DNA of 64,000 bases from Candidatus Forterrea multitransposorum CG_2015-17_Forterrea_25_41 (GCA_009392915.1 CP045477.1:320001-384000); one strand, 5' to 3'. Shown: positions 22,434-58,856, counted from the stretch's first letter. Made by a program: numbers and translations. Notes: generated by a model from the letters alone, not told the origin.

Positions 22434-22449
22434 ATTAAAAGAAGTAATT

Positions 22450-22953: not shown

Positions 22954-23019
22954 TAACATTTAAATATCTTTTGGACTAAAAAATTAATAAATATTATATT
23001 ATTGAGGTGAAAAATAATT

Positions 23020-23553: not shown

Positions 23554-23576
23554 AATTAGTTTAAAAAAGATAATAT

Positions 23577-23777: not shown

Positions 23778-23836
23778 ATAATTTTATTTAAAAAAGAAAA
23801 CTATTTTAAATACTTCTTATAATATCTTTATAATAT

Positions 23837-24418: not shown

Positions 24419-24426
24419 TTTTTTAA

Positions 24427-25592: not shown

Positions 25593-25593
25593 A

Positions 25594-26343: not shown

Positions 26344-26348
26344 GAAGA

Positions 26349-27074: not shown

Positions 27075-27117
27075 TTAATATATATTATAGATATATTATA
27101 TTTTTGGGGATAAATTA

Positions 27118-27618
27118 ATGGAAAACATATTTCAAACAATCTTAAATTATTTATTATTTATTTTAAAGTTAGTTGGTGTTTCAATACTTTTCTCAATTCC
27201 TTTCTTTATAATTGTAAAAATATTCAAATCTAAATTTATTAATTTAAGAAAGAAATTTAGTGTTATTGGTTCTCTTTTTATAATTATTTATATAATTTCA
27301 TACATTATTTTATTATTAATTTATTTTTTACCAATTATTTCAACTTTTTATCAAGATTTAACATTTTGGCAATCAGTAGGTTTTATTTTCTATCATTTAA
27401 TAAGATTAATTTTAATTAACATAATAATTTCAGGAGTTATTCTTTCCTTTTCATTTATAACTCTTGCAATTTATGATAAGTCTGAAACAAATAAAAAGAA
27501 ACCTTATCATAATCTTAATTTATTTAAAAGTCTAATAATTACAAATATAATTATATTTTTTATATTATTAGTCTTTCCAAAATTAATAGCATTATTAGTT
27601 TATTTAATATATATATAA
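27118..27618 (+). CDS. Polytopic membrane protein
   Basis: 166 aa, 5 TM. Ends 13 nt before the giant surface protein gene. Confidence 0.4.
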   Translation: MENIFQTILNYLLFILKLVGVSILFSIPFFIIVKIFKSKFINLRKKFSVIGSLFIIIYIISYIILLLIYFLPIISTFYQDLTFWQSVGFIFYHLIRLILINIIISGVILSFSFITLAIYDKSETNKKKPYHNLNLFKSLIITNIIIFFILLVFPKLIALLVYLIYI

Positions 27619-27631
27619 AAAAAGAGAAACT

Positions 27632-30600: not shown

Positions 30601-32521
30601 AGAAGTCATGGGAATACCAATAGGTTGGACAAACCAAATAACAGGAAAATCATATAGAGCAGGTGCTGTTGCAGCTGGTTTTTCAAATATTGTTTATTAT
30701 TCTTTAAGTGTTCCTCAACACAGAGTAGTTTTAGGAGCAATTTTTGGTGATATTTTACCACAAGTTGTAATTGTTCCAGAAATTTATAATTGTGTAGATC
30801 ATGAAGAAGGTTATTATTCACATTTCTTTGTTGCCTCTGAAGAATATGAAAGAATTGAAAAAGATCCAAAAAATAAAGTTGGAGATGCAATTTCAAAAGG
30901 AGCAGATTCTGTTGAAAAGAGTTTAACAAATATTACAAAGAACACAGAACTTCAAGAATCAATTTCAAAAACAACACAAGAAGTAAAACAATTTGCTGAA
31001 ACTGAAATTAAAGATAATCCAATTATGCAATCAAGAATAGAAACACAAGGTAATACTTCTGGATCAATGAATGCTAAACTTTTCTTCCTTGAAATTGGAG
31101 AAAGTTCAATGTGTAGAGCAAGTGGTTATAATGATAAAGGTGTTGAACATTTAGTTGATTCTAAAACAGGAGAAACTTTAGTTGTTGATAAAGAAGAAGG
31201 TGTTGTTGAAATTGTTGATAAAGATGGAAATGTTAAAGAAATAATTTCTTCAAAAAATAAAGATTGGGTAAGACTAATGGCAACTAACTTAGGAATTCCT
31301 GCAAAAGTAATTCCTCATAGTCTTTCATATATCCCTGTACCTGACACAAATACTCCTTTGTTTAATATTGATGTTTATGGTAATCTAAAGATAGATGATG
31401 CTGAATTTTTAAGTTGTTTAAAAAGAAATTACTATGAACAAACTGGTCTTGAAATGAGTGGTAATACTTTAACAGAATATTTAGGTTCTGTAAAACAAGT
31501 AATCACAACAAATAATTTAAACCCAGATAGTCAATATGACATAATACCAAAAGGAATGAATAGTTCAGCAGAAATAATAGCAGAAGGAACTCCAAGAAAA
31601 ATAGCTTCTGGTGAATCTGCAAGAATAAATGTTCTAGGAAACAGAACTACAAAATTATATCCTATTGAAGGAAAAGAAGTCACTCTTGGTAAAAATATTT
31701 CTGTTCAATTTGAAAGAGGACAATTAATCTATAATGGAGAAAAGAATAGTTATATTATGTGGGTTGAACAAACCTATGTAATGCATCAATCTGAAATAAA
31801 AGGAATGGATGTTGATCCTATAAAAGAAACTAATCCTGAAACTGGTTGTGAAGAAGATGCCTTTGAAATTAGTGTTTCACCAGATACTTCTAACCCTGAA
31901 GCTGTTAAAAAGTCAGAAAATATGAATAAAGCTTTAGAAAAAGTTGGACCATTTAAGATGTTTGATACACCTACAAAAACATTTATTTTCTATACAACAG
32001 AACCTCCAGAATGTCAAAATAGAATGAAAATTATAGATAAAGAAACAGGACAAGTAATTGATCAAGCAATTGATGAAATTATAACAACTCCTGATGGATT
32101 TATTGTAAGAACAGAAGATGGACAAGAACATAATTTTGAATTTAGTGCAGAAGATGGTGTCCCTAAATTAAAGTATAATGATCAAACAGAAACTTTACTT
32201 TCAGCACAAGGTAAAAATGGTTCTTTCTGGTATGATCCTAAGACAGGTAATTGGTATACAGAAAACGGTCACTTAATACCATTTGATCCAGAATACAGAG
32301 ATGGAATGACATTTAAAGTTGGAGAAGATGGTAAAGCTTATGGAACAACAGTTAATAACCTTCTTGGAAATCCAGCTGCAACAGGAGGAAGTGATAGAGG
32401 TACTTTAAATCTTCCATTAACTCCTGAAAAAATACTTCCATTCACTCTTTATATCTTAGTAATAATGGCAAGTTTTATGTACTTGTTTTCATCTAGAAAT
32501 CAAAAATTTAAGAAAAGGTAA
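27632..32521 (+). CDS. Giant (1629 aa) secreted surface protein with C-terminal TM anchor
   Basis: N-terminal signal peptide 'MKTKRLWAIFFLILMINGVFAS'. Single C-terminal TM 'ILPFTLYILVIMASFMYLF' followed by basic 'SSRNQKFKKR'. Cys pairs near the N-terminus. No recognisable catalytic motif. Confidence 0.6.
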   Translation: MKTKRLWAIFFLILMINGVFASTIDPNRVFSTEDTSYYFDDAIPINYTDEPINYTQDKVISECYTEELSPEAVENIWNEILVNGFKADLITSDQPANLNRETLKANEVIITDKDTKSGDVVGKTEIPDKIMDPLEVPTILGQVCYGPFSSGLDLDSTLRVGRCAGGDQAACYLEGEGLFRQNGSYGFIDQTFSVSKDFLDMLGLKKLEEVSNELIDPELDYDTNVDLGLFSDMSYEELAEFRKSQFQDSNLTEIDIKKMELVLDKAIENSMFTDSFNASMESTCNSDNCYINMYSLFDKVFNQYYSADMVFTSASPVLWKFTGKIFRNVPNKLGAQKLIASDKIGGIRGKNGFLDNFLNKDMSAVSSAVQTYKYSKITKNIDDYAAKLAKSNDNIIKNINRYNMKPEFDKYVNALNSKKNADTIKNEFFKDGAFAKMNKPQQRVFMESVLEYQNNIRTVRMVQDFTTDNLKNTLKEPLENLFNKSKTMEDFYQSLTKEEYDLLLEETKRLNGLNKSFSTFTENKFKWDDGADNITLLKERGKIINDEEVLLNKVRLKNEVTSTELTGSSKFGDIISENKVSPFQTKKITVNFKDGPSEVEVIIPFKEKISDTSTMLNYNDIIYNKKPDVLIEYVAKDGTAKKVRGSVIDIGDVDPGKQINMRDIKDTAVPDAELSKYGINPLEVSYGYLQELGIKKIKDAEIVTDGVVSVLKDQGWSTGRGLSYINQRMKQQTVTQWDKRGFNIMSDSAKAYLYNFGYWQFKTAGSTIFGGAFDRYSMFRIPETYTSIIFKHGESGDIYNDSYIDFFANDGSDQGDLFMDYFNSIIFWMVNLPKGALENTEWETTQGFSNWITELTEGHIRRSSTDNIAILTDAMNNNCSTTSCHIKVGDSSLLEEVTRSKSMDANNSTSTSLKKNIEVNYATGNAIKTTSYILENTSEENFEEEGQTLIAFSHHTDYDGSLAGFNSTDSVNLLQSINEEETCSDKLKNLEVMGIPIGWTNQITGKSYRAGAVAAGFSNIVYYSLSVPQHRVVLGAIFGDILPQVVIVPEIYNCVDHEEGYYSHFFVASEEYERIEKDPKNKVGDAISKGADSVEKSLTNITKNTELQESISKTTQEVKQFAETEIKDNPIMQSRIETQGNTSGSMNAKLFFLEIGESSMCRASGYNDKGVEHLVDSKTGETLVVDKEEGVVEIVDKDGNVKEIISSKNKDWVRLMATNLGIPAKVIPHSLSYIPVPDTNTPLFNIDVYGNLKIDDAEFLSCLKRNYYEQTGLEMSGNTLTEYLGSVKQVITTNNLNPDSQYDIIPKGMNSSAEIIAEGTPRKIASGESARINVLGNRTTKLYPIEGKEVTLGKNISVQFERGQLIYNGEKNSYIMWVEQTYVMHQSEIKGMDVDPIKETNPETGCEEDAFEISVSPDTSNPEAVKKSENMNKALEKVGPFKMFDTPTKTFIFYTTEPPECQNRMKIIDKETGQVIDQAIDEIITTPDGFIVRTEDGQEHNFEFSAEDGVPKLKYNDQTETLLSAQGKNGSFWYDPKTGNWYTENGHLIPFDPEYRDGMTFKVGEDGKAYGTTVNNLLGNPAATGGSDRGTLNLPLTPEKILPFTLYILVIMASFMYLFSSRNQKFKKR

Positions 32522-40617: not shown

Positions 40618-41817
40618 TTAACCACATGTTGCGTCTGTTGTTGATGTTGTTGTTTGACTAAAACCAAATCCAGGAGTTGGAGAAGCTGAACTTAAAACTT
40701 CATTACATGCTCTTGGTAATGTTTCAAATCCACTACAAATTGTATTTAAAAGACTTTGAGGATCTCTATTTGAATTTACAACAGTCCCATTAATTACAAG
40801 TGTTGGTGAACCTTGAACTCCATATTTTAAATTATCAGCATCATGTACTAAAAACTTAGGATATCTTCCATTAAGCCATGAAGCTTTATCTTCATAAGAT
40901 GCCATAACATTAAATTCTTGATCAGTTTCTGTAATACATGTATCTAAAGAATCTCTTGTGATTTGTGTTTCTTCAAGACATCTATCTGTATTTCCATCTT
41001 CTAAGAAACAATAAAGATAGTCATTAAATTTGTCATTAAATTCTTCTTGAATACAATATTGAAGTAATTGTTCTTCAACTTCAACAATATCATGCATAGC
41101 ATAATTTACAAACTTAATTTTAAAATCAATTGTGTCTTGTAAAACATCAACTGCAGGTAAAATTCCTTTTTCAACTTGAGTTCCATAAGGACAGTGAGAC
41201 ATTACAAACAATTCTACTGTTGGTTTTTCAGTCTTTGGAATTTCTTGAACTTCAGGAGTTGTATTCTCTCCTTCTGCTAAATTCAGGTCAGATTTATTAA
41301 TTGGTTCTAAACCAGGAACGAAAACCATTTCTCCATCTAAAGAAGTATATATTTCTACTTCTTGTCCTTCAATTTCAAAAGTATTAAGGCATAAGCCATT
41401 AGAAGATACTGTTGAAATTAAACTTAAAGAAGGTAATTGAAATGTATCAATTAAGAAAGTTTGTGTGTCTGGTCCAATATTTGTTGCACATTCATTAGAA
41501 GTCAATGATTTTTCAGAATAATTATTATTTGTTTCAATATTATTAAATAATATTTCTAAATCATTTAATAAAATTGTGTCTGATTGTGGATTTTCAGATT
41601 TAATTATTTCTAATAAATATTCTAAATCTTCTGATGTAATATTAGATTTATTGCCAGTTAATGCAAAAATACCTACTACAATTAATAAAACTAAAAGAAC
41701 AAAAGAAGTTATTTGCCAAAAATGATCTTTCATTTTACAAGTTTTATGTTTAGAAGAACTTACATTATGATGTTCTTCTTTATGTGTAGGTGTGTTTTTT
41801 TTAATTGTTTTTTTCAT
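40618..41817 (-). CDS. Membrane-anchored thioredoxin-fold (DsbA-like) protein
   Basis: N-terminal TM; 'VMSHCPYGTQ' CxxC motif; Cys-rich extracytoplasmic region; 399 aa. Confidence 0.4.
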   Translation of the reverse strand: MKKTIKKNTPTHKEEHHNVSSSKHKTCKMKDHFWQITSFVLLVLLIVVGIFALTGNKSNITSEDLEYLLEIIKSENPQSDTILLNDLEILFNNIETNNNYSEKSLTSNECATNIGPDTQTFLIDTFQLPSLSLISTVSSNGLCLNTFEIEGQEVEIYTSLDGEMVFVPGLEPINKSDLNLAEGENTTPEVQEIPKTEKPTVELFVMSHCPYGTQVEKGILPAVDVLQDTIDFKIKFVNYAMHDIVEVEEQLLQYCIQEEFNDKFNDYLYCFLEDGNTDRCLEETQITRDSLDTCITETDQEFNVMASYEDKASWLNGRYPKFLVHDADNLKYGVQGSPTLVINGTVVNSNRDPQSLLNTICSGFETLPRACNEVLSSASPTPGFGFSQTTTSTTDATCG

Positions 41818-42514: not shown

Positions 42515-44941
42515 TTAAATATTTTCTCTAATTTTTGATTTTGAAAAACCAGCATCTAAAAGATCTTCTTCTGAATAACCAGCAAGTCTAAGCTCTTCTA
42601 AACTATAACCTACACTTCTAAGTTCTCTTGCAGAAAAATGTAATTCTTTAAGTTCTTTGGCACCATAATGAATAACTTTCATAAGTCTAATTCCAACACC
42701 TAAATCAAAAACATCTTTTGCAGGATAACCAGCATAATGAAGTTGTCTTGCAGTATATCCTACATCATAAAGATCTTTTGCAGAAAATCCACCTTCTTTC
42801 ATAGAAGATGCATCATAACCTGCAATTTTTAAATCTCTTGCAGAATAATATGGATTTAAATCTTTTGGATAAAATCCAGCTTGAGACATTTCTTTTGCAG
42901 TATATCCTGCATTATAAAATTCAGAAATTGGTATACCTAAACCATAAAGTTCTTTTGCTTTATAACCTGCAAATCTAATAGTTGAAACATCAAAACCAGA
43001 ATCATACATTTCTTTTGCAGTATATCCTGCAGCATGATATTGTTTTGCAGTATATCCAATACTTAAAAGTTCTTTTGCACTAAATCCAGCTCTTCTAAGT
43101 TCAAGTAAAGAAAAGCCTTCTAAATGAAGTTCTAAAGCAGTAAATCCTGCAAGTCTTAAATCAATTAAATTATAACCATTTGCAAGGAAATCTTTTATTG
43201 TACATCCAAGCATATGAACTTCTCTTAAAGAATAACCACCTTCAAGTAAATCAAAACATGTACATCCAGCATTCTTTAAATCAATTGCTTTGTATCCAGC
43301 TTCTTTTAAATCTTTAATAGTATAACCTAATTTTAAAAGTTCAGGTATACTGTACTTTAAATATTTAAGTTCTTCTAAAGATACAACTTTATCATCTGAA
43401 AGAACAACAGGTTCAATAGGTTTTAAAGCAATTAACTCTGAAATATCAAATCCTGCTTCTTTAAGTTCATCAATTGTAATTCCATTTTCATATAATGGTT
43501 TTGCAGAAATTCCTTCTTTTCTAAATCTTACAAGAGGAATCTCTTTTAGAAGTTCTTTATAAGTAAAACCAATATCTAAAAGTTCTTTAATTGTAAATTT
43601 TTCTGCAACAATTTCTTCTAAAGAATAAACATCTTTAATTTCTTTTAAAGTATATCCTTTTTTTAGTAATTGTTTTAATGTAAATATTTTTGAAAGATCT
43701 TTAATTGTAAAACCACAATCTAATATTTCTTTAAGTTTATAACCAGCAGAAACAATTTCTTTTAAAGAATAACCAGCTTTTTTAAGATCTTTCGCAGGAT
43801 ATGCATATTCTTTTAATTTTTTAGCTCTAAATTTTGCATCTCTTAAATCTTTTGCATCAAATTCTGCAAAAAGAATTGAATGTTGATCAAATTTAACTTT
43901 CTTTAAATCACTTGGAGTATATCCTAAGTTTTTAAGATCTTTTGTTGAAATTCCTGCTTTCTTTAATTCTTTTAAAGAAAAATTTACATCATTAATTTCT
44001 TTAGGAGTATATTGTAGATAATAAAGATCTTTTGCAGTGAAGCCAAGTGACTTTAATGCTTTTGCATTATATTTATGTTCTTTTAAAACTTCAGCTGTTA
44101 AGCCATATGAAAATATTTCTTTTGAAGACATTTTTTTTAAAGTTTGATCATTAATAACTATTTTTACAACTTCTTCTTTTTTATTTTCAACTTTTTCTTT
44201 TTTTGCTTTTTCTTTTTTAATTTTATCTGTTTTTTCTTTTTTGCTTTTTACTTTTTCTTTTGGAAATTTATTTAAAGGTTTTATTTTTTCTTCTTTAATT
44301 TTAATTCCAATTTCTTTATCTGTAAAACCTGCTTTTCTTAACTGATCAATACTATATTTTGCTTTTTTAAGTTCTAAAATAGTATATGTACCTTGATATA
44401 GTTCTTTAGCAGTTAAACCAATATTTTTTAATTGTGATGCATCAAAACCTGCTCTCTTTAAATCTTTAACACTAAAACCAACTTCTAAAAGTTGTCTTGC
44501 AGTAAATTTAACTTTTTTTAATTCTTTTGAAGTATAACCTACAGATTTTAAATCTTTTAAATTAATTCCAAGTTCTTTTAAATCTTTTAAAGGAAATCCT
44601 GCAACTTGTAAATCTTTAACTGAATAACCTACAGAATAAAGTTCTTTTGCAGTAAAATCTAAATTTCTTAGATTTTGAGAACTAAAACCAACTTCTTTTA
44701 ATTTCTTAACAGTAAAGCCTGCTTTTTCTAAAGTTCTAGCCTTAAAGCCTAATCCCTTTAAAACAGTATAATTTGCTTTTACTTCATTTAATTTTTTTGC
44801 AAATTCTGTTTTATTTATTTTAAATTTTGAAAAAATAGAAACTGTTATTGGAGAAATAATATATCTTGAAGGAGAACTGATTTGTTTCTCTAAATATTCA
44901 TTTAATTCTTTTTTTGTTAAATTTTTTAAGTCAATAGCCAT
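42515..44941 (-). CDS. 808-aa cytoplasmic protein composed of ~60 tandem 11-residue repeats
   Basis: Repeat consensus [AG]-G-[FY]-[ST]-x-K-[DE]-L-[KR]-x-x, e.g. 'LKKAGYSLKEIVSAGYKLKEILDCGFTIKDL'. No signal peptide. Central K/E-rich linker 'KIKEEKIKPLNK...KEKVENKKEE'. Confidence 0.6.
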   Translation of the reverse strand: MAIDLKNLTKKELNEYLEKQISSPSRYIISPITVSIFSKFKINKTEFAKKLNEVKANYTVLKGLGFKARTLEKAGFTVKKLKEVGFSSQNLRNLDFTAKELYSVGYSVKDLQVAGFPLKDLKELGINLKDLKSVGYTSKELKKVKFTARQLLEVGFSVKDLKRAGFDASQLKNIGLTAKELYQGTYTILELKKAKYSIDQLRKAGFTDKEIGIKIKEEKIKPLNKFPKEKVKSKKEKTDKIKKEKAKKEKVENKKEEVVKIVINDQTLKKMSSKEIFSYGLTAEVLKEHKYNAKALKSLGFTAKDLYYLQYTPKEINDVNFSLKELKKAGISTKDLKNLGYTPSDLKKVKFDQHSILFAEFDAKDLRDAKFRAKKLKEYAYPAKDLKKAGYSLKEIVSAGYKLKEILDCGFTIKDLSKIFTLKQLLKKGYTLKEIKDVYSLEEIVAEKFTIKELLDIGFTYKELLKEIPLVRFRKEGISAKPLYENGITIDELKEAGFDISELIALKPIEPVVLSDDKVVSLEELKYLKYSIPELLKLGYTIKDLKEAGYKAIDLKNAGCTCFDLLEGGYSLREVHMLGCTIKDFLANGYNLIDLRLAGFTALELHLEGFSLLELRRAGFSAKELLSIGYTAKQYHAAGYTAKEMYDSGFDVSTIRFAGYKAKELYGLGIPISEFYNAGYTAKEMSQAGFYPKDLNPYYSARDLKIAGYDASSMKEGGFSAKDLYDVGYTARQLHYAGYPAKDVFDLGVGIRLMKVIHYGAKELKELHFSARELRSVGYSLEELRLAGYSEEDLLDAGFSKSKIRENI
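42560..44900. repeat. 33-bp periodic coding repeats (11-residue protein repeats)
   Basis: Degenerate 33-nt periodicity throughout the 808-aa repeat-protein gene, inferred from the regular [AG]G[FY][ST]xK[DE]L repeats in the translation. Confidence 0.5.
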
Positions 44942-45044: not shown

Positions 45045-46016
45045 TTATCTTCTAATAGATTTATTTATAACTCCTTTTAAAAATTCTAATGTTTTTTTTG
45101 TTGTAAAATCATCTTTTTCTCCAAAATAACTATGAAGTGTTGAATGATTTCTTTCTTTAACAATATAATGTTCTGCATAAATATTATTCTTAATAAGTTT
45201 TAAATAAAGATCTAAAGATTCAAGTTTTCCTATCCTTAAAATACTATTTTGTGCACTAAAAACAATCATTGGAGGAATATTTTTAGAGTCATTTATATAA
45301 TTTATTGAGGAGGCTTTTTTTAAAACTTCATTATTTTCTCCAAAAGGAAACATTAAATATTTATTTATAATTTGACCATCAATATCAAAATCTTTATACT
45401 TTAAAATATCATAACCAATTCCTTCAAGAAGAATTGTTCCTTTAATAACATTTAAATCTAAATCATTTTCTAGCAAATAAGATTCATCAGTTGAAATTAA
45501 AGAAATAATTTGTGCTCCTGCAGAATGTCCTTGAATAAAAATTAAATCTTTATTACCATTATAATCTCCAATATTATCATAAACCCATTTAATGGAACTT
45601 GAAACATCTTTTACATATACAGGAAATTTAACTTCAGGAAAAACTCTATAATTAATTGTAACCAAAATAAAATTATTATCAGTATAAAAAATACTTTTAA
45701 GCAAAGAATTTTTTTTAAAATCTTTATTTCCAAAAAAATCTGTCCATGCTCCACCATGTACAAAAATAACAACAGGTAAAAGTTTATTTTCAATAGTTTT
45801 TTTTGGAGTATAAATATCTAAAAGATTATATTTTATATCATGATTTACATCTTCAAGATTAATATATGGAATATCTTTATAATAATTAAAATTTGCTTTT
45901 TTTTCAAGATCATTATAATAATTATTTGTAGAAATTAAAGAAGATAAAAATATAATTATAATAATTGAAAAAAAAATAAACAGTTTATGTTTTTTAAGTG
46001 AATCTTTAATACCCAT
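45045..46016 (-). CDS. Alpha/beta hydrolase (esterase/lipase, HSL-like) with N-terminal TM
   Basis: 'VIFVHGGAW' (HGG oxyanion motif) and 'GHSAGAQI' (GxSxG nucleophile); N-terminal hydrophobic anchor. Confidence 0.7.
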   Translation of the reverse strand: MGIKDSLKKHKLFIFFSIIIIIFLSSLISTNNYYNDLEKKANFNYYKDIPYINLEDVNHDIKYNLLDIYTPKKTIENKLLPVVIFVHGGAWTDFFGNKDFKKNSLLKSIFYTDNNFILVTINYRVFPEVKFPVYVKDVSSSIKWVYDNIGDYNGNKDLIFIQGHSAGAQIISLISTDESYLLENDLDLNVIKGTILLEGIGYDILKYKDFDIDGQIINKYLMFPFGENNEVLKKASSINYINDSKNIPPMIVFSAQNSILRIGKLESLDLYLKLIKNNIYAEHYIVKERNHSTLHSYFGEKDDFTTKKTLEFLKGVINKSIRR

Positions 46017-46057
46017 AATTATTCTTTAAAAAATATAAAAAAACCTTAGAAAAGAAT

Positions 46058-46912
46058 CTAAGGTGTATACTCACAAGAATCTAAAAGTTCCTTTGCTCTA
46101 TTTTTTTCATCTTTAAGTTCTTGATTGTCTGGATCTTGAAGTAAAGCCATATATGCGCTTGTATGATCAGAGGTATATTTTGAATATTCTTCTTCTGTAC
46201 AATTACCATACATTCTTTCAGTCTCAATTTCATTTTCAGAATCTAACTTTTCATTTTCTGTATAAGTATCATTATCTTCTGTATAGTTTAAATAATCTTC
46301 TGTGTCGTTTGAAGAACTTGAGTTATTACTATAACTTGAATCTACAGCTAAATAATCATCTCCATAAAGATCTTTTCTTTTATCAGGATATCCATCAAAG
46401 TCTTTGTCAAAATCATCAAATATCCCATCATTATCAAAATCCCATGAATCTGCAAAACCATCTCCGTCTGTGTCATATCCTTCAATCTTACCGTTAGCAC
46501 CATAATCCCAGTTATCAGGAAGACCATCTTCATCTAGATCATACAAGATAACATCAATTTTAGCATCTCCGTCAAAATCAATTTTAATAACTTCAAAAAC
46601 TCCAGTGTTATCTAAATCATAGAAAAAACTATCAAGAATTTCATCTCCATGAACATCTATTGCTGCAAAATCAATAGAGCCATCTTTGTTATTGTCTATT
46701 GATACAAAATCTGAAAGTCCATCTCCATCTGTATCAACATTGTTTGCATAAAGATAAGGATTATTAATTACTTCTCCTTTCTCAAGATTATCCATAACTG
46801 AAACTTTATCTAGATCTTTTCCTTTCCCACCTGAAAATAAAAGTATTAAAATAAAAACAACTACTCCAATTATAATCCATGTTCTTATGTTATTTTTCTT
46901 TTTCACAGCCAT
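46058..46912 (-). CDS. Membrane-anchored Ca-binding repeat protein (DxDxDG, thrombospondin type 3 / dockerin-like)
   Basis: N-terminal TM 'WIIIGVVVFILILLF'; repeated 'DTDGDGLSD', 'DFDGDAKID', 'DLDEDGLPD', 'DTDGDGFAD', 'DFDNDGIFD'. Confidence 0.55.
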   Translation of the reverse strand: MAVKKKNNIRTWIIIGVVVFILILLFSGGKGKDLDKVSVMDNLEKGEVINNPYLYANNVDTDGDGLSDFVSIDNNKDGSIDFAAIDVHGDEILDSFFYDLDNTGVFEVIKIDFDGDAKIDVILYDLDEDGLPDNWDYGANGKIEGYDTDGDGFADSWDFDNDGIFDDFDKDFDGYPDKRKDLYGDDYLAVDSSYSNNSSSSNDTEDYLNYTEDNDTYTENEKLDSENEIETERMYGNCTEEEYSKYTSDHTSAYMALLQDPDNQELKDEKNRAKELLDSCEYTP

Positions 46913-46933
46913 AATATATCACCTAATATATAA

Positions 46934-49096
46934 TTAGTTATTAACAGGTGTTTTTTGTGTAATAACTTTTACATCCTCCCATTTATCTGTTGTATGGTTA
47001 AAGATTTGTAATCTGTTTTTACTAAGCCATGGAGAATAATATCTATACAACCTACCAGTTCCTTGAGCATCATCAAAAGTTTCAGTAGAACCTTTTGGTA
47101 TACTGTAGAATGCTTCAGAACCATCTTGTGCAGTTACTTTTTTAAAATCCATTTGTCCTCCAGTTTCTTCAAAATAAGTAGAGGTATTTGGATCATATAT
47201 TTTTATTTTAACTTTATAGTCACTTGAAATAATATTTCTTTCTGTATATTGTTGTAAATTTTGTTGAAGGAACCTATAATCACTATTTGAAACAACGTTT
47301 GCTTCTTTAGCTCTAGAATTATAATACTCTGTTGCTTTTGTAACTGCTTCTGCAGCTGTTTCAACACTGTTTCCTAAAGCTCCAACACCATCACTTAATC
47401 CTGGTGGAAGATAGTTTGCAACATTTTTAGTAATTGAACCCATAACTCTTAAGGCTTTAACAGCATCTTTTGTATTTGGATCTATATCTAAATTATTTAC
47501 TTTATCCATAAATTTTACATTGTCATAAGTATCGCTTGCCCAACCATAAACTTCATTAGCAGTTCCTACATTTTCATAAAAGTCTGCTAGTTGTTTTGAA
47601 GGTTTTACTTGATAAACAATATCTCCAACAGCACTACTTACACTTCCAGCTTGACTTGCTGCAAAGTTAGCCCAACCCATACCATCTCCAACTGAGCTTT
47701 TTAAATCATCAAAGACACCTGAGTCTGCAAGCATTGTATCTTTATAACCTTTTTCAACTATTGCTTTACTTAAATTTTTTTCAATATCTGATACGTTATT
47801 TCCAGAGTTTAAGATTAAATCAAGATCTTGGTTTTTACCTCCAAGTTCTAAATAAATATCTTTTAATTTTTGAATTTTTGAGTCTTGAGAATAATTTTTC
47901 TTTTCTTCTCTTAATTTTTGAATCTTATCATATGGATCTTCCATATCTTTAAGTTCTTCTGTTAAACGTTTAATTAACTCTTCATTACCTGCAAACATTT
48001 CTTTTAAATTTTTTTCAAGATCATTTACAAGTCCATCGATTGTTTCTTGTTTTTCTTTTTCAATATTTTCATAATGATTATCTAACATTTCTTTATTTTC
48101 TTCAATTTGTTTCTTTTGTGTATCTTCTTTAATTGCTTTTGAAGGGTCTTTTTTAGAATAAACGTTATCCCAATTTTCATTTATACAATCATAAGCTCTC
48201 ATTCTTGCCATATCTGAGTTATTACAGATTGCTAAAAAAGAACCAAAATTTTCTTCATAAAGTTTGTCAGAATCAAAGTTTGGAGAACATTCTTTTTCTA
48301 AATCATGATCTTGGAAAAAATCATCTAAATCTGCATCAACATTTGAAAATTTTGCTAAGGCTATTTGAGTTACATTAATATTTAATAGATCATCAACACA
48401 CATAATAAAGGTATTTTCAACAGTACCCTCTATCATACATTCATGACCATTATAACTATCTACAACTTGTATACCATCTTCAATTTTAAAATAAAGTTCA
48501 TTTATTTTATCAGAAGCTTCTTGTTCAAGTTGATCTGCATTAATTTTATCTCTACATTTTTTCATTTCAGTAGATTTTTTAGTTTCACATTCAGATGTTA
48601 AATTTAAGTTATCAACTATTAATTGACCACATGTCTTTGCTTCTAAACATTCACACTCTTCTTTTCCATCTACAGTAGTACAAGAAGGGTTTGCACAGTA
48701 TGACATGGTACTTATTTTTGAAGCATCTTCAAAACATAAGGTATTATAAAAAGTTGAATAATCACAATAATCTAAATAAGGTTTATAGATATCCTTAAAT
48801 TCTTTAAATTGTGGTGTAGAAATAATTGCATTATTTGCAATCATTGAAACTTTGCTAAAACAGTTTCTTTTTTCAAAATCCCAAGCATCTGCGTATTCTT
48901 GTTGGGAATTATAGTTTTGTCTTAAAACTTGGTTGTCATTAAATTCTTGTTGATATTTTTCTGCAACTTTTTGTTGTTCTTCTGTGAGATCAAAAAAGTC
49001 CATTGCATAAATTTGCGATGTTAATATTATAACACTAAATAAAAGTAGAAAAATAAATAAAATGTTTTTTTGTTTTAATTTATTTTTAAAAACCAT
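46934..49096 (-). CDS. Large secreted Cys-rich protein
   Basis: Signal peptide 'ILFIFLLLFSVIILTSQIYA'; about 25 Cys in the N-terminal half; 720 aa; no catalytic motif seen. Confidence 0.5.
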   Translation of the reverse strand: MVFKNKLKQKNILFIFLLLFSVIILTSQIYAMDFFDLTEEQQKVAEKYQQEFNDNQVLRQNYNSQQEYADAWDFEKRNCFSKVSMIANNAIISTPQFKEFKDIYKPYLDYCDYSTFYNTLCFEDASKISTMSYCANPSCTTVDGKEECECLEAKTCGQLIVDNLNLTSECETKKSTEMKKCRDKINADQLEQEASDKINELYFKIEDGIQVVDSYNGHECMIEGTVENTFIMCVDDLLNINVTQIALAKFSNVDADLDDFFQDHDLEKECSPNFDSDKLYEENFGSFLAICNNSDMARMRAYDCINENWDNVYSKKDPSKAIKEDTQKKQIEENKEMLDNHYENIEKEKQETIDGLVNDLEKNLKEMFAGNEELIKRLTEELKDMEDPYDKIQKLREEKKNYSQDSKIQKLKDIYLELGGKNQDLDLILNSGNNVSDIEKNLSKAIVEKGYKDTMLADSGVFDDLKSSVGDGMGWANFAASQAGSVSSAVGDIVYQVKPSKQLADFYENVGTANEVYGWASDTYDNVKFMDKVNNLDIDPNTKDAVKALRVMGSITKNVANYLPPGLSDGVGALGNSVETAAEAVTKATEYYNSRAKEANVVSNSDYRFLQQNLQQYTERNIISSDYKVKIKIYDPNTSTYFEETGGQMDFKKVTAQDGSEAFYSIPKGSTETFDDAQGTGRLYRYYSPWLSKNRLQIFNHTTDKWEDVKVITQKTPVNN

Positions 49097-49233
49097 TTTT
49101 ATACCCCTTTTCTTTTTTTTTAAAAATATAAAATTAAACCTAATTTTTTGAATATTTATATATAATAGACATAATAATATTTATAAATAGAATTAATCTT
49201 TAAATAATATATAAAATAAGAAAATAATTACAT

Positions 49234-49707
49234 ATGACTAAAGAAAATATTATTGGAATTATAAAAAATGTCCAAGCTAAAGGAAAAAATACATTTATTA
49301 AGAAAAACTGCGATCTTTATTTTACAAATAAAAGATTAGTATGTGTAGTCTTAAGTAACTCTAATTTTGTTGCTGGGATGAGTGGTGGATTGATTGCAGG
49401 AGTTTCAGGCATTTTAGCATATTCTCAAGTAACAGATTATACAGCTAAAAATAAAAGACTTCAAAATAAAGAAAAAGAAGTAGATGAAATTATTAGCCAA
49501 TGCCCAAATAGTTTTGATATTAAGAATGAAGAAATTATATTTCAGAAATCAAGATTTGAATCTAGATTCTTAAAAACTTTTGGAATTTTTGCACAATTAA
49601 TAATTAAAACTGAAAATAAAAAATATTATTTTGATATTCCCTATAGTGATAGAAAAATGGCAAAAATAATTGTTTCAGAATACAGTTCAGAAATAAAAAT
49701 TAATTAA
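49234..49707 (+). CDS. Hypothetical protein
   Basis: 157-aa ORF. Confidence 0.3.
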   Translation: MTKENIIGIIKNVQAKGKNTFIKKNCDLYFTNKRLVCVVLSNSNFVAGMSGGLIAGVSGILAYSQVTDYTAKNKRLQNKEKEVDEIISQCPNSFDIKNEEIIFQKSRFESRFLKTFGIFAQLIIKTENKKYYFDIPYSDRKMAKIIVSEYSSEIKIN

Positions 49708-49712
49708 AAGAT

Positions 49713-50126
49713 TTATTCTCCAATAATCTTAATAATAACTCTTTTATCTCTTTTACCATCAAACTCTGCATAATAGACTTCTTCCCAAGGTCCAAAGTCT
49801 GCTTTTCCATTTGTTATTGGGATTGTAACTTCATGCCCTATTATCATTCTTTTTAAGTGAGCATCTCCATTATCTTCCCCTGTTAAATGATGTTTATAAT
49901 CTTTTCCAGACGGTGCTAAAGTTTCAAGCCATTCTTTTATATCCTCTATAAGTCCATTTTCAGCATCATTGATGTAGACACCAGAGGTGATATGCATGGC
50001 ATTAACATGGCATAAACCTTCTTTTACTTTAGAGTCTTCAATAGCTTGATTTACTTCTTCTGTAATGTTTATAAATTCCATTCTTTTTTTTGTTTTAAAT
50101 AACAAATATTTTGTAAAACTTTTCAT
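49713..50126 (-). CDS. YjbQ/UPF0047 family protein (secondary thiamine-phosphate synthase-like)
   Basis: '[21 protein letters not shown]' and '[35 protein letters not shown]' match the UPF0047 pattern. Confidence 0.7.
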
Positions 50127-50133
50127 AATTATT

Positions 50134-50700
50134 TCATTCTTTTTTTATTTTTTTAAAAAACTTTAAAGCTTCAGGAATAGTAGTGACTCCATCACCTTGA
50201 CAAATATGCCCTTTTTTTCCAACATTAACTTCAGTAGCATCTAAATCTTTAATTAACTTAGTAATATCTTTCTTTATAGCAAAAGGATCATCTTGTGAAT
50301 AGATAACAATAAACTTCTTTGCCTTATCTTTTATCTTCTTAAAATCTATTGGGGTTTCTGCCCATGGCTTTGCAACAGACCATCCTTCATTTTCATCTAA
50401 ATTATTTTTATTAATAGTCATCCAAGGGGCAACTAAAATTACATTACCTACTTTTCCATTATACTTTTCTAAAAACCTTAAGATGGTTTGGCAGCCAACA
50501 GAGTGTCCAACAAATATAGTGGCTCCATCTACTTTTAAGGATTGTAATTTCTCAACCCATGGCTTTATCTTAGGATTATCAGTATCTGGCATTACTGGCA
50601 AAGATACCTTATATCCTCTTTCACTTACCTTTTCTTTAAGATAAGGAAACCAATCTGATTTAGGGTTAGCTCCCCATCCATGTATAATATATACTTTCAT
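50134..50700 (-). CDS. RBBP9/YdeN-like serine hydrolase
   Basis: '[11 protein letters not shown]' and 'GHSVGCQ' nucleophile elbow; 188 aa. Confidence 0.6.
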
Positions 50701-50782
50701 TTTATCACATTAAATTTAATAAAAATACAAATATATTATTATATACACTTAAATGATTTATAAATATTTGTTTTAAAACAGA

Positions 50783-51331
50783 TTAGATCTCTTTCTTAAA
50801 ATAAAGCCTAACATTACCGTCTTTCTTACCAATTGAGATAAGCTTATAGTCATTCTTTAAAATATTCTTTTTACTATAAAGATTATCAGGATGTGCACTA
50901 ATAACTGAATATTTATAATTAATACTTTTAAGATAACCCTCTCTTAACTTTATAAGGTAATCTTGAAGCCCATGCCCTCTATATTTCTTTAAGACACCAG
51001 CTCCAGCAAACTCAGCTGTAAGGTCCATATCTTTTTTAGATATCTTACAGTATTTTTTAAAGTTTTCTTTAAATTTGTTATCTTCTTTAAAACAATACAC
51101 AAAAGAATAAGCAATAGGTTTATCTCTATAGTATGTTAAAAAAATAGCAGACTTATAATCAAAATCTTTCTTTAATAATTCATAATCATAAGGAAAGTCA
51201 AATTCTTTAGGTGTTTTTTTAAGTATTTCTAGATGTAATTTTTTAAAAATATAAACTTCACTTTTGTTTATCTTATAGGTTTTAAAAAGTTTATCTTTTA
51301 ATTTTACAGACTCAATATATTTCATAAACAA
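50783..51331 (-). CDS. GNAT-family acetyltransferase (putative)
   Basis: 'AGAGVLKKYRGHGLQDYL' resembles the acetyl-CoA binding motif A (Q/RxxGxG/A). Confidence 0.45.
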   Translation of the reverse strand: MFMKYIESVKLKDKLFKTYKINKSEVYIFKKLHLEILKKTPKEFDFPYDYELLKKDFDYKSAIFLTYYRDKPIAYSFVYCFKEDNKFKENFKKYCKISKKDMDLTAEFAGAGVLKKYRGHGLQDYLIKLREGYLKSINYKYSVISAHPDNLYSKKNILKNDYKLISIGKKDGNVRLYFKKEI

Positions 51332-51514
51332 CTCTTTGGAATATCATTAAAAAAAATATTGATAATTTTTAAATTTGAACTTAATGATTCTATTTTAATT
51401 AAATCTAATAATAGAGTATTTACATTCATAAGATAATATAAATACAAATAATTTATAAATAGTTTGTGGGGATAATTTTAAACTATATTTTTAATAAAAA
51501 AGAATAAGAAAAAT

Positions 51515-57098: not shown

Positions 57099-57360
57099 TA
57101 ATAACTATTGAACCAATATATTATATATATTATAGAACAAAAATATTTATAAACACATCAGATTTATTTTTAATCAAAATTATAAAAATAAAATTATGGA
57201 CTGATAAATATACTTTTAAAAAAATATTATTAAATAAAAAAAGAAAAATTTCTTATAATTAAAGAAATTTTGATGTGTGGAAGAAAAACAAACACTTCAG
57301 GTTAGGTAAGTTTTTAAAACTTTTAAAATAACAACTAACATTTAGTCATTATATAAAATA

Positions 57361-58856
57361 GGAGGTGATCCGTCCGCAGGTTCCCCTACGGACACCTTGT
57401 TACAACTTAGTCTACCTCGCGAAATATAGAATAACTTTATCCTTTAGTAGAGTAAAGTTCATCAACACTCCACTCGGTTGGCTTGATGGGCGGTGTGTGC
57501 AAGGCGCAGGGACATATTCACCGCGTGATAGTGACACGCGATTACTGGGGATTCCAGCTTCATGAGGGTGAGTTGCAACCCTCAATCCGGACTTAGACTA
57601 AGTTTTTGAGATTGCCACCCCTTTTCAGGTTAGATACTCTTTGTCTTAGCCATTGTATGCCGCGTGTTGCCCAGAACATTCACGCTATACAGACCTACCT
57701 TCGCCCACTCCTTCCTCATTGTTACCAATGCAGTCCTATTAGAGTGCCTTCTTTTGCAAGCAAAAAAAGTAGCAACTAATAGCATGGGTCTCGCCCGTTA
57801 CCTGAGTTAACAGGAAGCTTCACAGTACGAGCTGACGATGGCCATACAGCAGTTCTCAGCGCATCAGGTAACCCCTTCAGAGTGACCATCATATTGCTGT
57901 CAGCCCTGGTAAAATATCTGGCGTTTCATCCAATTAAACCGCAGCATCCACCCCTTGTAGTGCACCCCCGCCAATTCCATTAAGTTTCAGTCTTGCGACC
58001 ATACTTCCCAGGCGGTGAATTTAATGGTTTCCCTTCGGCCCTGAGCTAACTCGTAGTTAACCCAACACCTAATTCACATCGTTTACGGCTGGGACTAACC
58101 GGGTATCTAATCCGGGTTGCGCCCCCAGCTTTCGTATCTCACTGTCGAATCCGTACTCGTTAAGCGCCTTCGCCACAGGTGGTCTTTTTAGTATCTTAAG
58201 ATTCTACTCCTACTCTAAAAATACCCTTAACGTCTTCCGGTTCCTAGTCATGCCAGTATCTTTTGCAATTCAACTAGTTAGGCTAGCTGCTTTCACAAAA
58301 GACTTAACAAACCAGCTACACACGCTTTAAGCCAAATAATGCTGGATACCACTTGGGGATTACGTATTACCGCGGCGGCTGGCACGCATATTGCCCTCCC
58401 CTTATTCACATAGTTATTCACACTATATAAAAGCTTACATAGTAAGCACTTGGAATCTCTTTATCACGATTTCTCGCATTGTAAAAGTTTCGTAACTGCT
58501 GCACCCCGTAGGGCTAGGGACATTATCTCAGTTCCCTTCTCCGGGCTACCTCTCTCAAGGCCCGTACAGATCTTCGGCTTGGTAGGCAGTTACCCTACCA
58601 ACAACCTAATCTGGCGCAGTCCCATCCTTTCGCGCCAAAGAAGCATGATTCTTTGACCTTTAAAATAGTAATCATTCCAGATTTACTTTTTTATAGAGCA
58701 TTATACTCAGTTTCCCGAGTTTAACTCTTCAAAAGGGTAGGTTGACCACGTGTTACTGAGCCGTTCGCCAAAACCTCTCATAGCTGAGGCTTTAAGACTT
58801 GCATGTCTTAGTCAGATTCCAATAGCAGTATCCACCAGCAGGATCAGCTGGAATTG
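57361..58856 (-). rRNA. 16S rRNA (archaeal type)
   Basis: Plus strand shows the RC of the 16S 3' end ('aggaggtgatccgtccgcaggttcccctacggacaccttgttacaactt') at 57361. It carries the RC of GTGCCAGCCGCCGCGGTAATAC at ~58366-58387. The 5' end is ATTCCAGCTGATCCTGCTGG (RC at ~58837-58856). Length ~1.49 kb. Confidence 0.9.

What the first reader, a model, noticed from the sequence alone, without database searches (positions are those of the whole stretch)
45045..49096. Three consecutive secreted/membrane-anchored proteins: HSL-type esterase, DxDxDG Ca-binding repeat protein, 720-aa Cys-rich protein
All three are on the minus strand with short gaps and carry N-terminal hydrophobic anchors or signal peptides. 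The middle protein is packed with thrombospondin-type-3 / dockerin-like calcium-binding loops (DTDGDG, DFDGDA, DLDEDG ...). The largest has ~25 cysteines and no recognisable domain. Together with the pilus and giant-protein locus, this is a second surface-exposed module, possibly adhesion or matrix or lipid interaction.
Basis: seen in the sequence. Interest (0 to 1): 0.5.

Follow-up and report, generated by a model that had tools for sequence, protein, structure and literature searches.

The report
Accessory surface-protein genes of DPANN archaeon
Three neighbouring genes of a tiny, AT-rich archaeon encode proteins that are probably exported to the cell surface, but they form two separable units (an orphan protein paired with a calcium-loop repeat protein, and a separate esterase) that close strains delete or inactivate, so this is an ordinary strain-variable surface locus with one mildly novel repeat.

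Summary
The three minus-strand ORFs exist exactly as described, in an archaeal (DPANN, Iainarchaeota-labelled), 24 % GC genome. Each has a Lys-rich N-terminus followed by one hydrophobic segment.

- **Esterase.** It is a genuine alpha/beta serine hydrolase. It fits Pfam BD-FAE better than the HSL family, and it lacks the canonical HSL catalytic Asp.
- **Middle protein.** It carries ten 13/11-residue units, six with a full DxDxDG loop (P<5e-5). It matches no TSP3, dockerin, EF-hand or any other HMM. AlphaFold models it confidently as one short beta-strand per unit, with no convincing solved analogue.
- **720-aa protein.** It has 15 cysteines, not ~25. All 15 are invariant and lie in residues 79-304. 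An exhaustive search of 1.84 billion proteins found relatives only in its own clade.

The "trio module" idea is only partly supported. Big and mid are coupled by a conserved Shine-Dalgarno-like site and stay adjacent in three lineages. A conserved hairpin plus T-run separates mid from the esterase. One relative has big+mid without the esterase. One natural strain lineage (15 contigs) has deleted big+mid but kept the esterase. Two strains carry a stop at esterase codon 17.

Function remains inferred: a Ca-stiffened anchor plus a secreted variable-head protein, possibly used for attachment.

The parts
46934..49096 (-). 'big': 720-aa orphan secreted protein (whole ORF including stop)
   Evidence: ORF. 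No family in Pfam, NCBIfam, PHROGs or PADLOC. Only 4 relatives among 5.8e9 proteins. The profile search of 1.84e9 representatives found only its own clade. dN/dS is 0.15 against strain L013.
49004..49096 (-). big residues 1-31: signal-peptide-like N-terminus (K-rich n-region, hydrophobic core, IYA|MD)
   Evidence: The orthologues keep the hydrophobic core and a VFA|G/E site despite only 38 % identity in this block. Heuristic only; no predictor was run.
48185..48862 (-). big residues 79-304: Cys-rich, acidic, variable N-terminal domain (15 invariant Cys)
   Evidence: Cys positions. All 15 are invariant across 4 orthologues. Cys content is 6.6 % against a window median of 0.5 %. 30 of the 36 within-species variable sites lie in residues 63-354.
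47747..48139 (-). big residues 320-450: highly charged (42 % KRDE) helical, probably coiled-coil segment
   Evidence: Composition. Long helices in the low-confidence AF2 model. The only PDB profile hits are coiled coils, at a non-significant E of 0.1-5.
46937..47536 (-). big residues 521-720: strongly conserved C-terminal domain (helical Gly/Ala/Ser-rich part, then a beta-rich part)
   Evidence: 80-90 % identity to the L001 orthologue, against 22-70 % elsewhere in the protein. 84 % identity in L005.
46918..46924 (-). Shine-Dalgarno-like AGGTGAT 5 nt upstream of the mid start codon (7 nt to the ATG counting from GGTGA)
   Evidence: It is complementary to the 16S 3' end GGATCACCTCCT found in the same window. 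GGTGAT is conserved before the L001 mid start.
46058..46912 (-). 'mid': 284-aa membrane-anchored Asp-rich Ca-loop repeat protein (whole ORF including stop)
   Evidence: Orthologues occur in L001 and L005. dN/dS is 0.11.
46829..46882 (-). mid residues 11-28: single N-terminal transmembrane anchor (WIIIGVVVFILILLFSG) after MAVKKKNNIR
   Evidence: Kyte-Doolittle >1.6 only here. Helix 9-27 in the AF2 model. Conserved in the orthologues.
46370..46735 (-). mid residues 60-181: ten tandem 13/11-residue D-x-[DN]-x-D-G-x-x-D-h-x-h-h units, six with a full DxDxDG loop
   Evidence: Motif statistics and register. AF2 pLDDT is 88-92, with one 4-residue strand per 13 residues. No Pfam family at E<=10. No convincing PDB analogue.
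46061..46264 (-). mid residues 217-284: beta-hairpin plus two-helix hairpin carrying Cys238 and Cys280; absent in the L005 orthologue
   Evidence: AF2 pLDDT 71-89. Both Cys are conserved in L001. P0006 ends before this region, and no frame encodes it downstream.
46036..46064 (-). terminator-like hairpin (8-bp stem, 6-nt loop, overlapping the mid stop codon) followed by T7
   Evidence: one of 2 sites found, against 0.8 expected. The fold gives -11.6 kcal/mol with z = -2.6. The same CCTTAGA...TCTAAGG hairpin plus a T-rich tract follows the L001 mid gene.
45045..46016 (-). 'est': 323-aa N-terminally anchored alpha/beta serine hydrolase (BD-FAE / Abhydrolase_3); HGGA 87-90, GHSAG 163-167, His291; Ser258 at the canonical acid position
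45967..45967 (-). polymorphic site: esterase codon 17 TCA (Ser) in the window, TAA (stop) in strains L006 and L013
46099..50324 (.). ~4.2-kb segment absent from a closely related strain lineage. It covers the 3' part of the Ser_hydrolase gene, the YjbQ/UPF0047 gene, the 157-aa gene, big, and all but the last 13 codons of mid. Boundaries are accurate to about 3 bp.
   Evidence: The same junction ORF (138 aa) followed directly by the esterase occurs in 15 contigs from independent samples and assemblers.

Best explanation
The stretch holds two independent units of accessory cell-envelope genes in a DPANN (Iainarchaeota-labelled) archaeon.

Unit 1 is a two-gene operon.
- 'Big' is secreted through a cleavable signal peptide. 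It has a less-constrained, disulfide-braced acidic N-terminal head, a charged helical stalk and a strongly conserved C-terminal domain.
- 'Mid' stays in the membrane through an N-terminal anchor. It projects a rod of tandem Ca2+-binding DxDxDG loops, each alternating with a short beta-strand, so that bound calcium stiffens the rod.
- The most likely working model is an inference. Mid is the membrane tether or scaffold that holds the otherwise anchorless big protein at the cell surface, probably through big's conserved C-terminal domain. Big's variable head then faces outward to contact something external, such as a host cell, a matrix or a particle.

Unit 2 is a separately transcribed, N-terminally anchored ecto-serine esterase of the BD-FAE/family-IV type. 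It would hydrolyse small or carbohydrate-linked esters outside the cell. It lacks the canonical triad acid, so it works either as a Ser-His dyad or with a relocated acid (Glu198 or Asp203 after strand beta6).

Both units are dispensable in nature.

Shown: gene structure, motifs, narrow distribution, coupling signals, the conservation pattern, the deletion and the nonsense alleles. Inferred: export, Ca binding, a big-mid complex, any adhesion role, and the esterase substrate.
For: Export topology:
- All three proteins have a positively charged N-terminus followed by a single hydrophobic segment, and the orthologues keep it.
- The 15 Cys of big are invariant and enriched 13-fold over the window median.
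- Dx[DN]xDG motifs are biased towards secreted and surface proteins (PMC3123361).

Big and mid as one unit:
- The gap is 21 bp, with AGGTGAT complementary to the 16S 3' end, and the site is conserved in L001.
- The two genes are adjacent in all three lineages where this can be tested: the window, L001 and L005.
- They are lost together in the deletion lineage.

Esterase as a separate unit:
- A conserved hairpin plus T-run follows mid.
- L005 has no esterase after mid.
- The deletion lineage keeps an intact esterase.

The genes are functional where retained: dN/dS is 0.15 for big and 0.11 for mid, similar to the neighbours at 0.09-0.17.

Big has a mosaic of constraint:
- The C-terminal 200 aa are 80-90 % identical between species, against 22-70 % for the rest.
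- 30 of 36 within-species variable sites lie in residues 63-354.

Repeat rod: AF2 gives pLDDT 88-92 with a strict 13-residue strand periodicity, and the motif excess has P<5e-5.

Esterase catalytic motifs: HGGA, GHSAG and His291 are conserved in both orthologues, with BD-FAE at 1.6e-27.

Precedent: hypothetical N-terminally anchored surface proteins of Nanoarchaeota show raised non-synonymous variation (PMC6142677).
Against: - No signal-peptide or TM predictor was available, and some public annotations start big at Met32, which leaves out the signal peptide (P0037).
- No direct evidence shows that big and mid interact. The deletion that removes them also removes two unrelated genes, so the co-loss is not specific.
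- Mid's C-terminal hairpin is missing in L005, so it cannot be the conserved docking element.
- There is no sign of positive selection on big's head: omega is 0.15 there and 0.11 in the C-terminal part.
- The structure of big could not be modelled (pLDDT 35), so its domains are defined only by composition and conservation.
- Ca binding is inferred from the motif alone.
- The esterase lacks the canonical acid, has nonsense alleles and shows raised omega on few substitutions, so it may be decaying and not active.
Confidence: 0.5

Rival explanations
1. One reading: the three genes form one co-functioning surface module (adhesion, matrix or lipid interaction), transcribed and used together.
For: All three lie on the same strand with short gaps. 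The order big-mid-esterase is kept in L001 at 50-63 % protein identity. All three carry N-terminal hydrophobic segments.
Against: - A conserved terminator-like hairpin plus T-run lies between mid and the esterase, and there is no SD site before the esterase.
- L005 has big+mid without an adjacent esterase.
- The deletion lineage keeps the esterase without big and mid.
- The nonsense esterase alleles sit next to intact big and mid genes.
- Collinearity in L001 extends well beyond the trio, so it reflects relatedness.
Confidence: 0.12
2. No functional link at all: three unrelated, lineage-specific, non-essential exported proteins that are neighbours only because close relatives are collinear. 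Big and mid act independently.
For: - Every relative that has the genes is a close relative with wide collinearity.
- The deletion also removes unrelated genes.
- Mid's tail is dispensable.
- All three genes are lost or inactivated in some strains.
- Orphan hypothetical proteins are common in the window; for example, positions 19660-32521 also have no Pfam hits.
Against: - The big-mid junction is tight: 21 bp in the window, about 14 bp in L001 and about 20 bp in L005.
- The SD-like site is conserved.
- Big and mid are retained together in all three testable lineages, while the flanking genes change (Zip insertion in L001, different downstream genes in L005).
Confidence: 0.28
3. Big is a secreted toxin or effector (for example a polymorphic toxin or pore-former, suggested by the Gly/Ala/Ser-rich helices at 451-620), and mid is its immunity or chaperone partner.
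For: The pair is arranged as a two-gene cassette. The locus is strain-variable, with presence/absence polymorphism. Residues 560-575 contain a GxxxGxGxxG-like stretch (sequence).
Against: - Polymorphic toxins have conserved N-terminal and variable C-terminal parts, whereas here the C-terminus is the conserved part.
- There are no hits to any toxin, immunity, PADLOC or PHROG model.
- Mid is itself extracytoplasmic and Ca-loop-rich, which is unlike immunity proteins.
- There are no paralogous cassettes in the window.
Confidence: 0.05
4. The segment is of viral or mobile-element origin (for example a provirus receptor-binding protein cassette), which would explain its presence/absence among strains.
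For: The segment shows a presence/absence polymorphism of 4.2 kb, and an adjacent segment (window 50776-51378) is replaced by other genes in L008. GC content is slightly higher (0.297) at 46-48 kb.
Against: - PHROGs gives no hits for big, mid or the 157-aa protein.
- IMG/VR contigs hold no relatives.
- There is no integrase, tRNA or long flanking repeat at the borders. The junction shows only ~7 bp of microhomology and truncates two host genes in frame, which is the signature of a deletion, not of an insertion.
- The GC bump is explained by Asp (GAT/GAC) richness.
Confidence: 0.03

Closest known systems
Dx[DN]xDG calcium-binding loop families: EF-hand, the integrin-type 'calcium blade'/FG-GAP, thrombospondin type 3, dockerin (Rigden et al. 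2011, PMC3123361)
   Same: The nine-residue D-x-[DN]-x-D-G-x-x-D loop of mid is the same linear motif, with the extra acidic ligand at position +8 as in integrin-type loops. Individual loops align weakly to EF-hand proteins (EhCaBP2 E=5.5e-4 for a richer relative; lanmodulin/EF-hand E=0.8-2.8 for mid). The extracytoplasmic bias of the motif also fits.
Ca2+-stabilised or very short-period beta-solenoid repeats: the RTX nonapeptide beta-roll, the Marinomonas Ca-dependent ice-binding beta-helix, the 12-residue Tenebrio antifreeze beta-helix (from my own knowledge; not tested by search)
   Same: The concept is shared: a tandem short repeat in which each unit gives one strand plus a turn, stabilised by a bound ion or a disulfide, forming a rigid extracellular rod.
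BD-FAE (PF20434) and family IV / HSL-type esterases (Abhydrolase_3, PF07859)
   Same: The esterase passes both Pfam cut-offs (96.9 and 52 bits). It has the HGG(A) oxyanion motif, the GxSxG elbow (GHSAG) and a C-terminal His, and it aligns to solved HSL-family esterases (4wy5 E=1.5e-15, 4zrs).
   Different: The catalytic Asp position of HSL enzymes (AE-x-D-x-LR) is Ser258 here and Thr in the orthologue. The N-terminal cap is replaced by a membrane anchor. The NCBIfam HSL subfamily models are far below their cut-offs. The homology is largely confined to the N-terminal half.
Hypothetical N-terminally anchored, fast-evolving surface proteins of DPANN archaea (Jarett et al. 2018, PMC6142677)
   Same: These are lineage-restricted hypothetical proteins with a single N-terminal hydrophobic segment, and they show elevated amino-acid variation and strain-level gene-content variation.
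   Different: That class is defined by behaviour, not by homology. Here omega is low (0.11-0.15), so there is no evidence of diversifying selection.

Membership tests
Hormone-sensitive-lipase (family IV) esterases | HGG(G/A) oxyanion-hole motif | tested here: met
   VHGGAW at residues 86-91, invariant in the L001 orthologue. It aligns to the HGG of 4wy5 and 4zrs.
Hormone-sensitive-lipase (family IV) esterases | GxSxG nucleophile elbow | tested here: met
   GHSAG at 163-167, invariant in the orthologue. It aligns to GDSAG/GQSAG of the solved esterases.
Hormone-sensitive-lipase (family IV) esterases | Catalytic Asp after strand beta7 (AE-x-D-x-LR motif) | tested here: not met
   4wy5 'TAESDVLR' and 4wy8 'TAEADVLR' align to 'SAQNSILR' in the window and 'NAERTIFR' in L001, so the Asp position is Ser or Thr.
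Hormone-sensitive-lipase (family IV) esterases | Score above the curated family cut-off | tested here: inconclusive
   Pfam Abhydrolase_3 scores 52 bits (cut-off 25), so it is met. NCBIfam GTSAG/GCSAG/GESAG HSL subfamilies score 17-23 bits (cut-offs 380-430), so they are not met.
BD-FAE (PF20434) carbohydrate/aryl esterases | Pfam gathering score | tested here: met
   96.9 bits against a cut-off of 26.8, E=1.6e-27, covering profile positions 1-198 of 215. This is the best-scoring family.
BD-FAE (PF20434) carbohydrate/aryl esterases | Feruloyl/acetyl-xylan esterase activity | not testable with these tools
   This needs an enzyme assay.
Thrombospondin type 3 repeats | Match to the TSP3 HMMs (PF02412, PF18884) and Cys-containing DxDxDGxxDxxDxC units | tested here: not met
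   No Pfam hit at E<=10. There is no Cys in residues 1-237 of mid.
Dockerin type I | Duplicated ~22-residue EF-hand-like loop-helix segments; PF00404 match | tested here: not met
   No Pfam hit at E<=10. The period is 13 residues, with predicted strands and not helices.
EF-hand | Helix-loop-helix with a 12-residue loop; HMM match | tested here: not met
   No Pfam hit. The PDB profile gives E=0.76-2.8 to EF-hand/lanmodulin, which is not significant. No helices flank the loops in the model.
Dx[DN]xDG calcium-binding linear motif (Rigden et al.) | Presence of the Dx[DN]xDG sequence with a nearby additional acidic ligand | tested here: met
   Six D-x-[DN]-x-[DN]-G-x-x-[DE] matches, against 0.29 expected.
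Dx[DN]xDG calcium-binding linear motif (Rigden et al.) | Actual Ca2+ binding | not testable with these tools
   This needs biochemistry or a structure with bound metal.
Sec-exported / membrane-anchored archaeal surface proteins | N-terminal signal peptide or signal anchor with N-in orientation | tested here: inconclusive
   The heuristics are positive: K-rich n-region, a single hydrophobic core, and a V/I-x-A site in big. No dedicated predictor was available.

The most novel reading that the evidence does not exclude
Two readings together.

First, the 13-residue DxDxDG-strand unit of the middle protein may define an undescribed Ca2+-binding repeat fold: a calcium-stapled beta rod with one strand per unit. 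It recurs in unrelated architectures, including N-terminal to C39-like peptidase domains and fused to a multi-TM protein, and it has no Pfam model and no solved structure.

Second, in this DPANN lineage it may act as the membrane tether of a clade-specific, disulfide-rich secreted protein. The two would then form a two-component, Ca-dependent attachment device that strains gain or lose.
Probability: 0.2. Interest if true: 0.55.

Novelty: new variant of a known kind. Interest (0 to 1): 0.27.

Why it matters
DPANN archaea depend on contact with other cells, but the molecules that mediate that contact are mostly unknown orphan proteins. This locus offers a small, tractable candidate: a two-gene cassette with a natural knock-out strain available for comparison. 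It also offers a compact Ca-loop repeat that could be a new structural context for the Dx[DN]xDG motif.

The wider lesson is methodological. Adjacency of three 'surface-looking' genes in close relatives does not make them a module. Strain-level deletions and intergenic signals split them into separate units. Apart from that, the locus is typical of the strain-variable envelope genes found in many small-genome archaea.

Tried and rejected
1. AlphaFold2 of the 720-aa protein with its 4-sequence alignment gave mean pLDDT 35 and pTM 0.21. The model was unusable, so no fold search was run on it.
2. The exhaustive profile search with A1 against 1.84e9 representatives found only the protein's own clade. 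The GTDB genome scan found only the same MAG as P0004. PDB profile searches gave only non-significant coiled-coil or EF-hand matches.
4. The metagenome scan with the esterase alignment chose patterns from the poorly conserved N-terminus. It returned a single locus, so it could not test synteny in distant relatives, although that locus (L008) revealed the deletion strain.
5. I first read L005 as carrying a split big pseudogene. It is a scaffold gap of 149 N, so I rejected that reading.
6. I considered the L008 junction as a possible assembly chimera. I rejected this because there is only ~7 bp of imperfect microhomology and 15 independent contigs carry it.
7. I considered diversifying selection on big's head. 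It is not supported (omega 0.15).
8. The viral or defence origin is rejected.
9. The sigma-70 promoter scan is uninformative in this archaeal, 76 % AT sequence: 36 sites found against 34 expected.
10. The 219-aa esterase P0029 is cut by a contig end and is not a nonsense allele.

Full report
**Context.** The window is archaeal: a complete archaeal 16S rRNA lies at 57360-58854. The sequence is very AT-rich, about 24 % GC. The closest relatives of the proteins studied are MAGs labelled 'Candidatus ainarchaeum sp.'. I take this to be a misspelling of Candidatus Iainarchaeum (Iainarchaeota, DPANN/Nanobdellati). The exact proteins of the window occur on 37-40 public contigs, the longest 839 kb, so this small-genome organism has been sampled repeatedly.

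**Observation.** The three minus-strand ORFs are at the stated coordinates, with gaps of 41 and 21 bp.
- Each begins with a Lys-rich stretch and then one hydrophobic segment. No further hydrophobic segments follow.
- The large protein has 15 cysteines, not ~25. All lie in residues 79-304, where Cys is 6.6 % against a median of 0.5 % for ORFs of the window.
- The middle protein is 18 % Asp and has six full D-x-[DN]-x-[DN]-G loops. None of 20,000 composition-preserving shuffles reached six (mean 0.29).
- The loops sit in an exact 13-residue register (residues 60, 73, 86, 99, 112, 125), followed by four 11-residue units.

**Esterase (45045-46016).**
- It passes the Pfam cut-offs for BD-FAE (96.9 bits, the best), COesterase and Abhydrolase_3. 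It matches a PHROG esterase family over residues 55-292.
- It aligns to solved family-IV esterases such as 4wy5 and 4zrs.
- HGGA (87-90), GHSAG (163-167) and His291 are conserved in the 50 %-identical orthologue of L001.
- At the position of the HSL catalytic Asp (4wy5 'AESDVLR', 4wy8 'AEADVLR') the window has 'AQNSILR' and L001 has 'AERTIFR'. The canonical acid is therefore absent.
- Glu198 and Asp203 ('LLEGxGYD', after the presumed strand beta6) are conserved. They are candidate relocated acids, by analogy with lipases whose acid follows beta6. This is my inference.
- NCBIfam HSL-subfamily models score far below their cut-offs.
- 'HSL-type' is thus right at superfamily level only. BD-FAE-like serine hydrolase is the better label.

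**Middle protein (46058-46912).**
- No Pfam model matches even at E<=10, so there is no TSP3, dockerin, EF-hand or FG-GAP match. NCBIfam, PHROGs and PADLOC give nothing.
- True orthologues exist only in L001 (63 % identity) and L005 (71 %).
- A profile search finds about a dozen further proteins that share only the repeat. Several carry it N-terminal to a Peptidase_C39-like domain, and one carries it after a multi-TM region. The 13-residue unit is therefore a repeat class that occurs in other architectures.
- AlphaFold2 with a 17-sequence alignment gives pLDDT 88-92 for residues 60-180. It shows a 4-residue strand every 13 residues (69-72, 82-85, 95-98, 108-111, 121-124, 134-137). It also shows an N-terminal helix 9-27, a disordered Asn/Ser/Thr-rich linker with six N-glycosylation sequons, and a C-terminal beta-hairpin plus two helices carrying Cys238 and Cys280.
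- Foldseek against the PDB finds nothing below E=0.03.
- PDB sequence searches give only marginal EF-hand loop matches.
- The loops therefore fit the Dx[DN]xDG calcium motif, which Rigden et al. note is strongly biased to secreted and surface proteins (PMC3123361). The structural context has no described counterpart that I could find.

**Large protein (46934-49096).**
- No library matches it.
- The word-indexed search of 5.8e9 proteins returns only four proteins.
- The exhaustive HMMER profile search of 1.84e9 cluster representatives returns only the same clade.
- GTDB species representatives hold one copy, and viral contigs hold none. It is a clade-restricted orphan.
- AlphaFold failed (pLDDT 35).
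- Its organisation can still be read from sequence and conservation:
  - residues 1-31: a signal-peptide-like N-terminus with IYA|MD, and VFA|G/E in the orthologues;
  - residues 79-304: an acidic Cys-rich region whose 15 Cys are all invariant;
  - residues 320-450: a 42 % charged helical segment;
  - residues 521-720: a C-terminal part that is 80-90 % identical to the L001 orthologue, while the rest is 22-70 % identical.
- Within the species, 30 of 36 variable positions lie in residues 63-354, and none is a Cys.
- dN/dS against strain L013 is 0.15 overall (0.15 for codons 32-354, 0.11 for codons 521-720). This is close to the neighbouring genes at 0.09-0.17. The N-terminal part is less constrained, but it is not demonstrably under positive selection, and the gene is functional where it is kept.

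**Is it a trio?**
- L001 (58 % identity for big) keeps the order big-mid-esterase. Its collinearity with the window extends further: the divergent 157-aa gene upstream, then the 812-aa decapeptide-repeat protein, a thioredoxin-like protein and an Rce1-like protease downstream. A ZIP transporter and a 120-aa gene are inserted after the esterase. Synteny at this distance says little.
- The intergenic signals split the trio:
  - Mid is preceded by AGGTGAT, complementary to the 16S 3' end, and GGTGAT is conserved in L001.
  - Mid's stop codon lies inside an 8-bp-stem hairpin followed by T7 (z = -2.6). The same hairpin plus a T-rich tract follows mid in L001.
  - The esterase has no SD-like site.
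- Gene content splits it as well:
  - In L005, big (interrupted only by a scaffold gap) and mid are adjacent, but they are followed by nucleoside deoxyribosyltransferase, thymidylate kinase, SHMT, ThyA and DHFR.
  - L008 is a strain 91-99 % identical in flanking DNA. It lacks window positions ~46099-50324: the 3' part of the Ser_hydrolase gene, the YjbQ gene, the 157-aa gene, big, and all but the last 13 codons of mid.
  - The L008 junction is an in-frame chimeric ORF, Ser_hydrolase residues 1-125 plus 'RAKELLDSCEYTP'. The esterase downstream is intact.
  - The junction has only ~7 bp of imperfect microhomology. It recurs in 15 contigs from different samples and assemblers. It is therefore a real deletion.
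  - Conversely, two strains on different backgrounds (L006 at 99.98 % identity, L013 at 97.5 %) carry TCA->TAA at esterase codon 17, next to intact big and mid genes.
  - The esterase also shows higher omega, 0.32 and 0.97, but these rest on only 14 and 10 substitutions.

**Interpretation.** The best-supported picture is two independent, non-essential envelope units.
- The first is a big+mid operon. I infer that the membrane-anchored, Ca-stiffened mid protein tethers or organises the secreted big protein, whose conserved C-terminal domain is the likeliest docking part and whose less-constrained Cys-rich head faces outward.
- The second is a separately expressed, anchored ecto-esterase.
- The pattern fits what Jarett et al. 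reported for hypothetical N-terminally anchored surface proteins of Nanoarchaeota (PMC6142677).
- Adhesion to a host or to a matrix is plausible but untested. A lipid role has no specific support. From general knowledge, archaeal ether lipids are not esterase substrates and BD-FAE enzymes act on carbohydrate esters.
- The rivals are one three-gene module, complete independence of the genes, a toxin/immunity pair, and a viral origin. Their weights are given in the structured fields.

**Verdict.** The locus is an ordinary strain-variable surface-gene region. Its one modestly novel element is the 13-residue Ca-loop repeat with no model or structure, alongside an unplaceable orphan protein.

Noticed in passing
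window 42515-44941 (-): This 808-aa protein, immediately downstream of the esterase, is built almost entirely of Pfam 'Decapeptide' repeats (PF25296, E=2e-182, 13 stretches). It also matches the repeat region of the type IVB secretion protein DotG/IcmE (NCBIfam, 557 bits, below the 750 cut-off). It has no N-terminal hydrophobic segment and is conserved in L001 (58 % identity) and in all strains. A DotG-like repeat protein in a DPANN archaeon is unusual.
   Followed up: partly
window 46099-50324; L008 5544-5960; L009, L010, L011: A natural 4.2-kb deletion in a sister strain lineage fuses the Ser_hydrolase gene in frame to the last 13 codons of mid. It removes the YjbQ gene, the 157-aa gene, big and mid. 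The junction is seen in 15 contigs from independent samples.
   Followed up: yes
window 45967; L006, L013: The same nonsense change (TCA->TAA, esterase codon 17, directly after a T9 run) occurs on two different strain backgrounds. It is either a recurrent mutation at a homopolymer edge or an allele spread by recombination.
   Followed up: partly
window 50776-51378 against L008 3583-5458: The 182-aa ORF of the window (50783-51331, no family) is replaced in the deletion lineage by an M20 peptidase gene and a CMAS-type methyltransferase gene. Flanking DNA identity drops to 91 % on that side. The region is a hotspot of gene-content variation.
   Followed up: partly
window 49234-49707 (+): This 157-aa gene is divergently transcribed from big, matches no family, and has a central Gly-rich hydrophobic stretch. 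It is more conserved than big or mid (71 % identity to L001). It lies next to big in every relative examined and is lost with it in the deletion lineage. It is a possible partner or regulator.
   Followed up: no
window 40618-41817 (-): This 399-aa protein has an N-terminal TM segment, 2.8 % Cys and a weak thioredoxin-like hit (motif 'HCPYG'). Its orthologue in L001 is only 34 % identical. It may be an extracytoplasmic thiol-disulfide oxidoreductase, which would be relevant to the folding of Cys-rich exported proteins such as big.
   Followed up: no
None of those tested gives a Pfam hit at E<=0.001, so this is another block of orphan genes.
   Followed up: partly
P0007, P0010, P0016, P0019, P0021, P0022 (not in window): Proteins from other metagenomes combine a long N-terminal array of the same 13-residue DxDGDG repeat with a C-terminal Peptidase_C39-like domain and show no evident signal peptide. 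This architecture has no Pfam model for its repeat part.
   Followed up: partly
big start codon, window 49096 against 49003: Some public annotations (P0037 and P0039, 689 aa) start the large protein at Met32, exactly after the predicted signal-peptide cleavage site. They therefore annotate it without its export signal.
   Followed up: partly
P0003 and P0004 (L003, L002/L004): In two MAGs the contig ends inside the big gene (after residues 578 and 483). This is consistent with assembly breaking in a strain-variable region.
   Followed up: no
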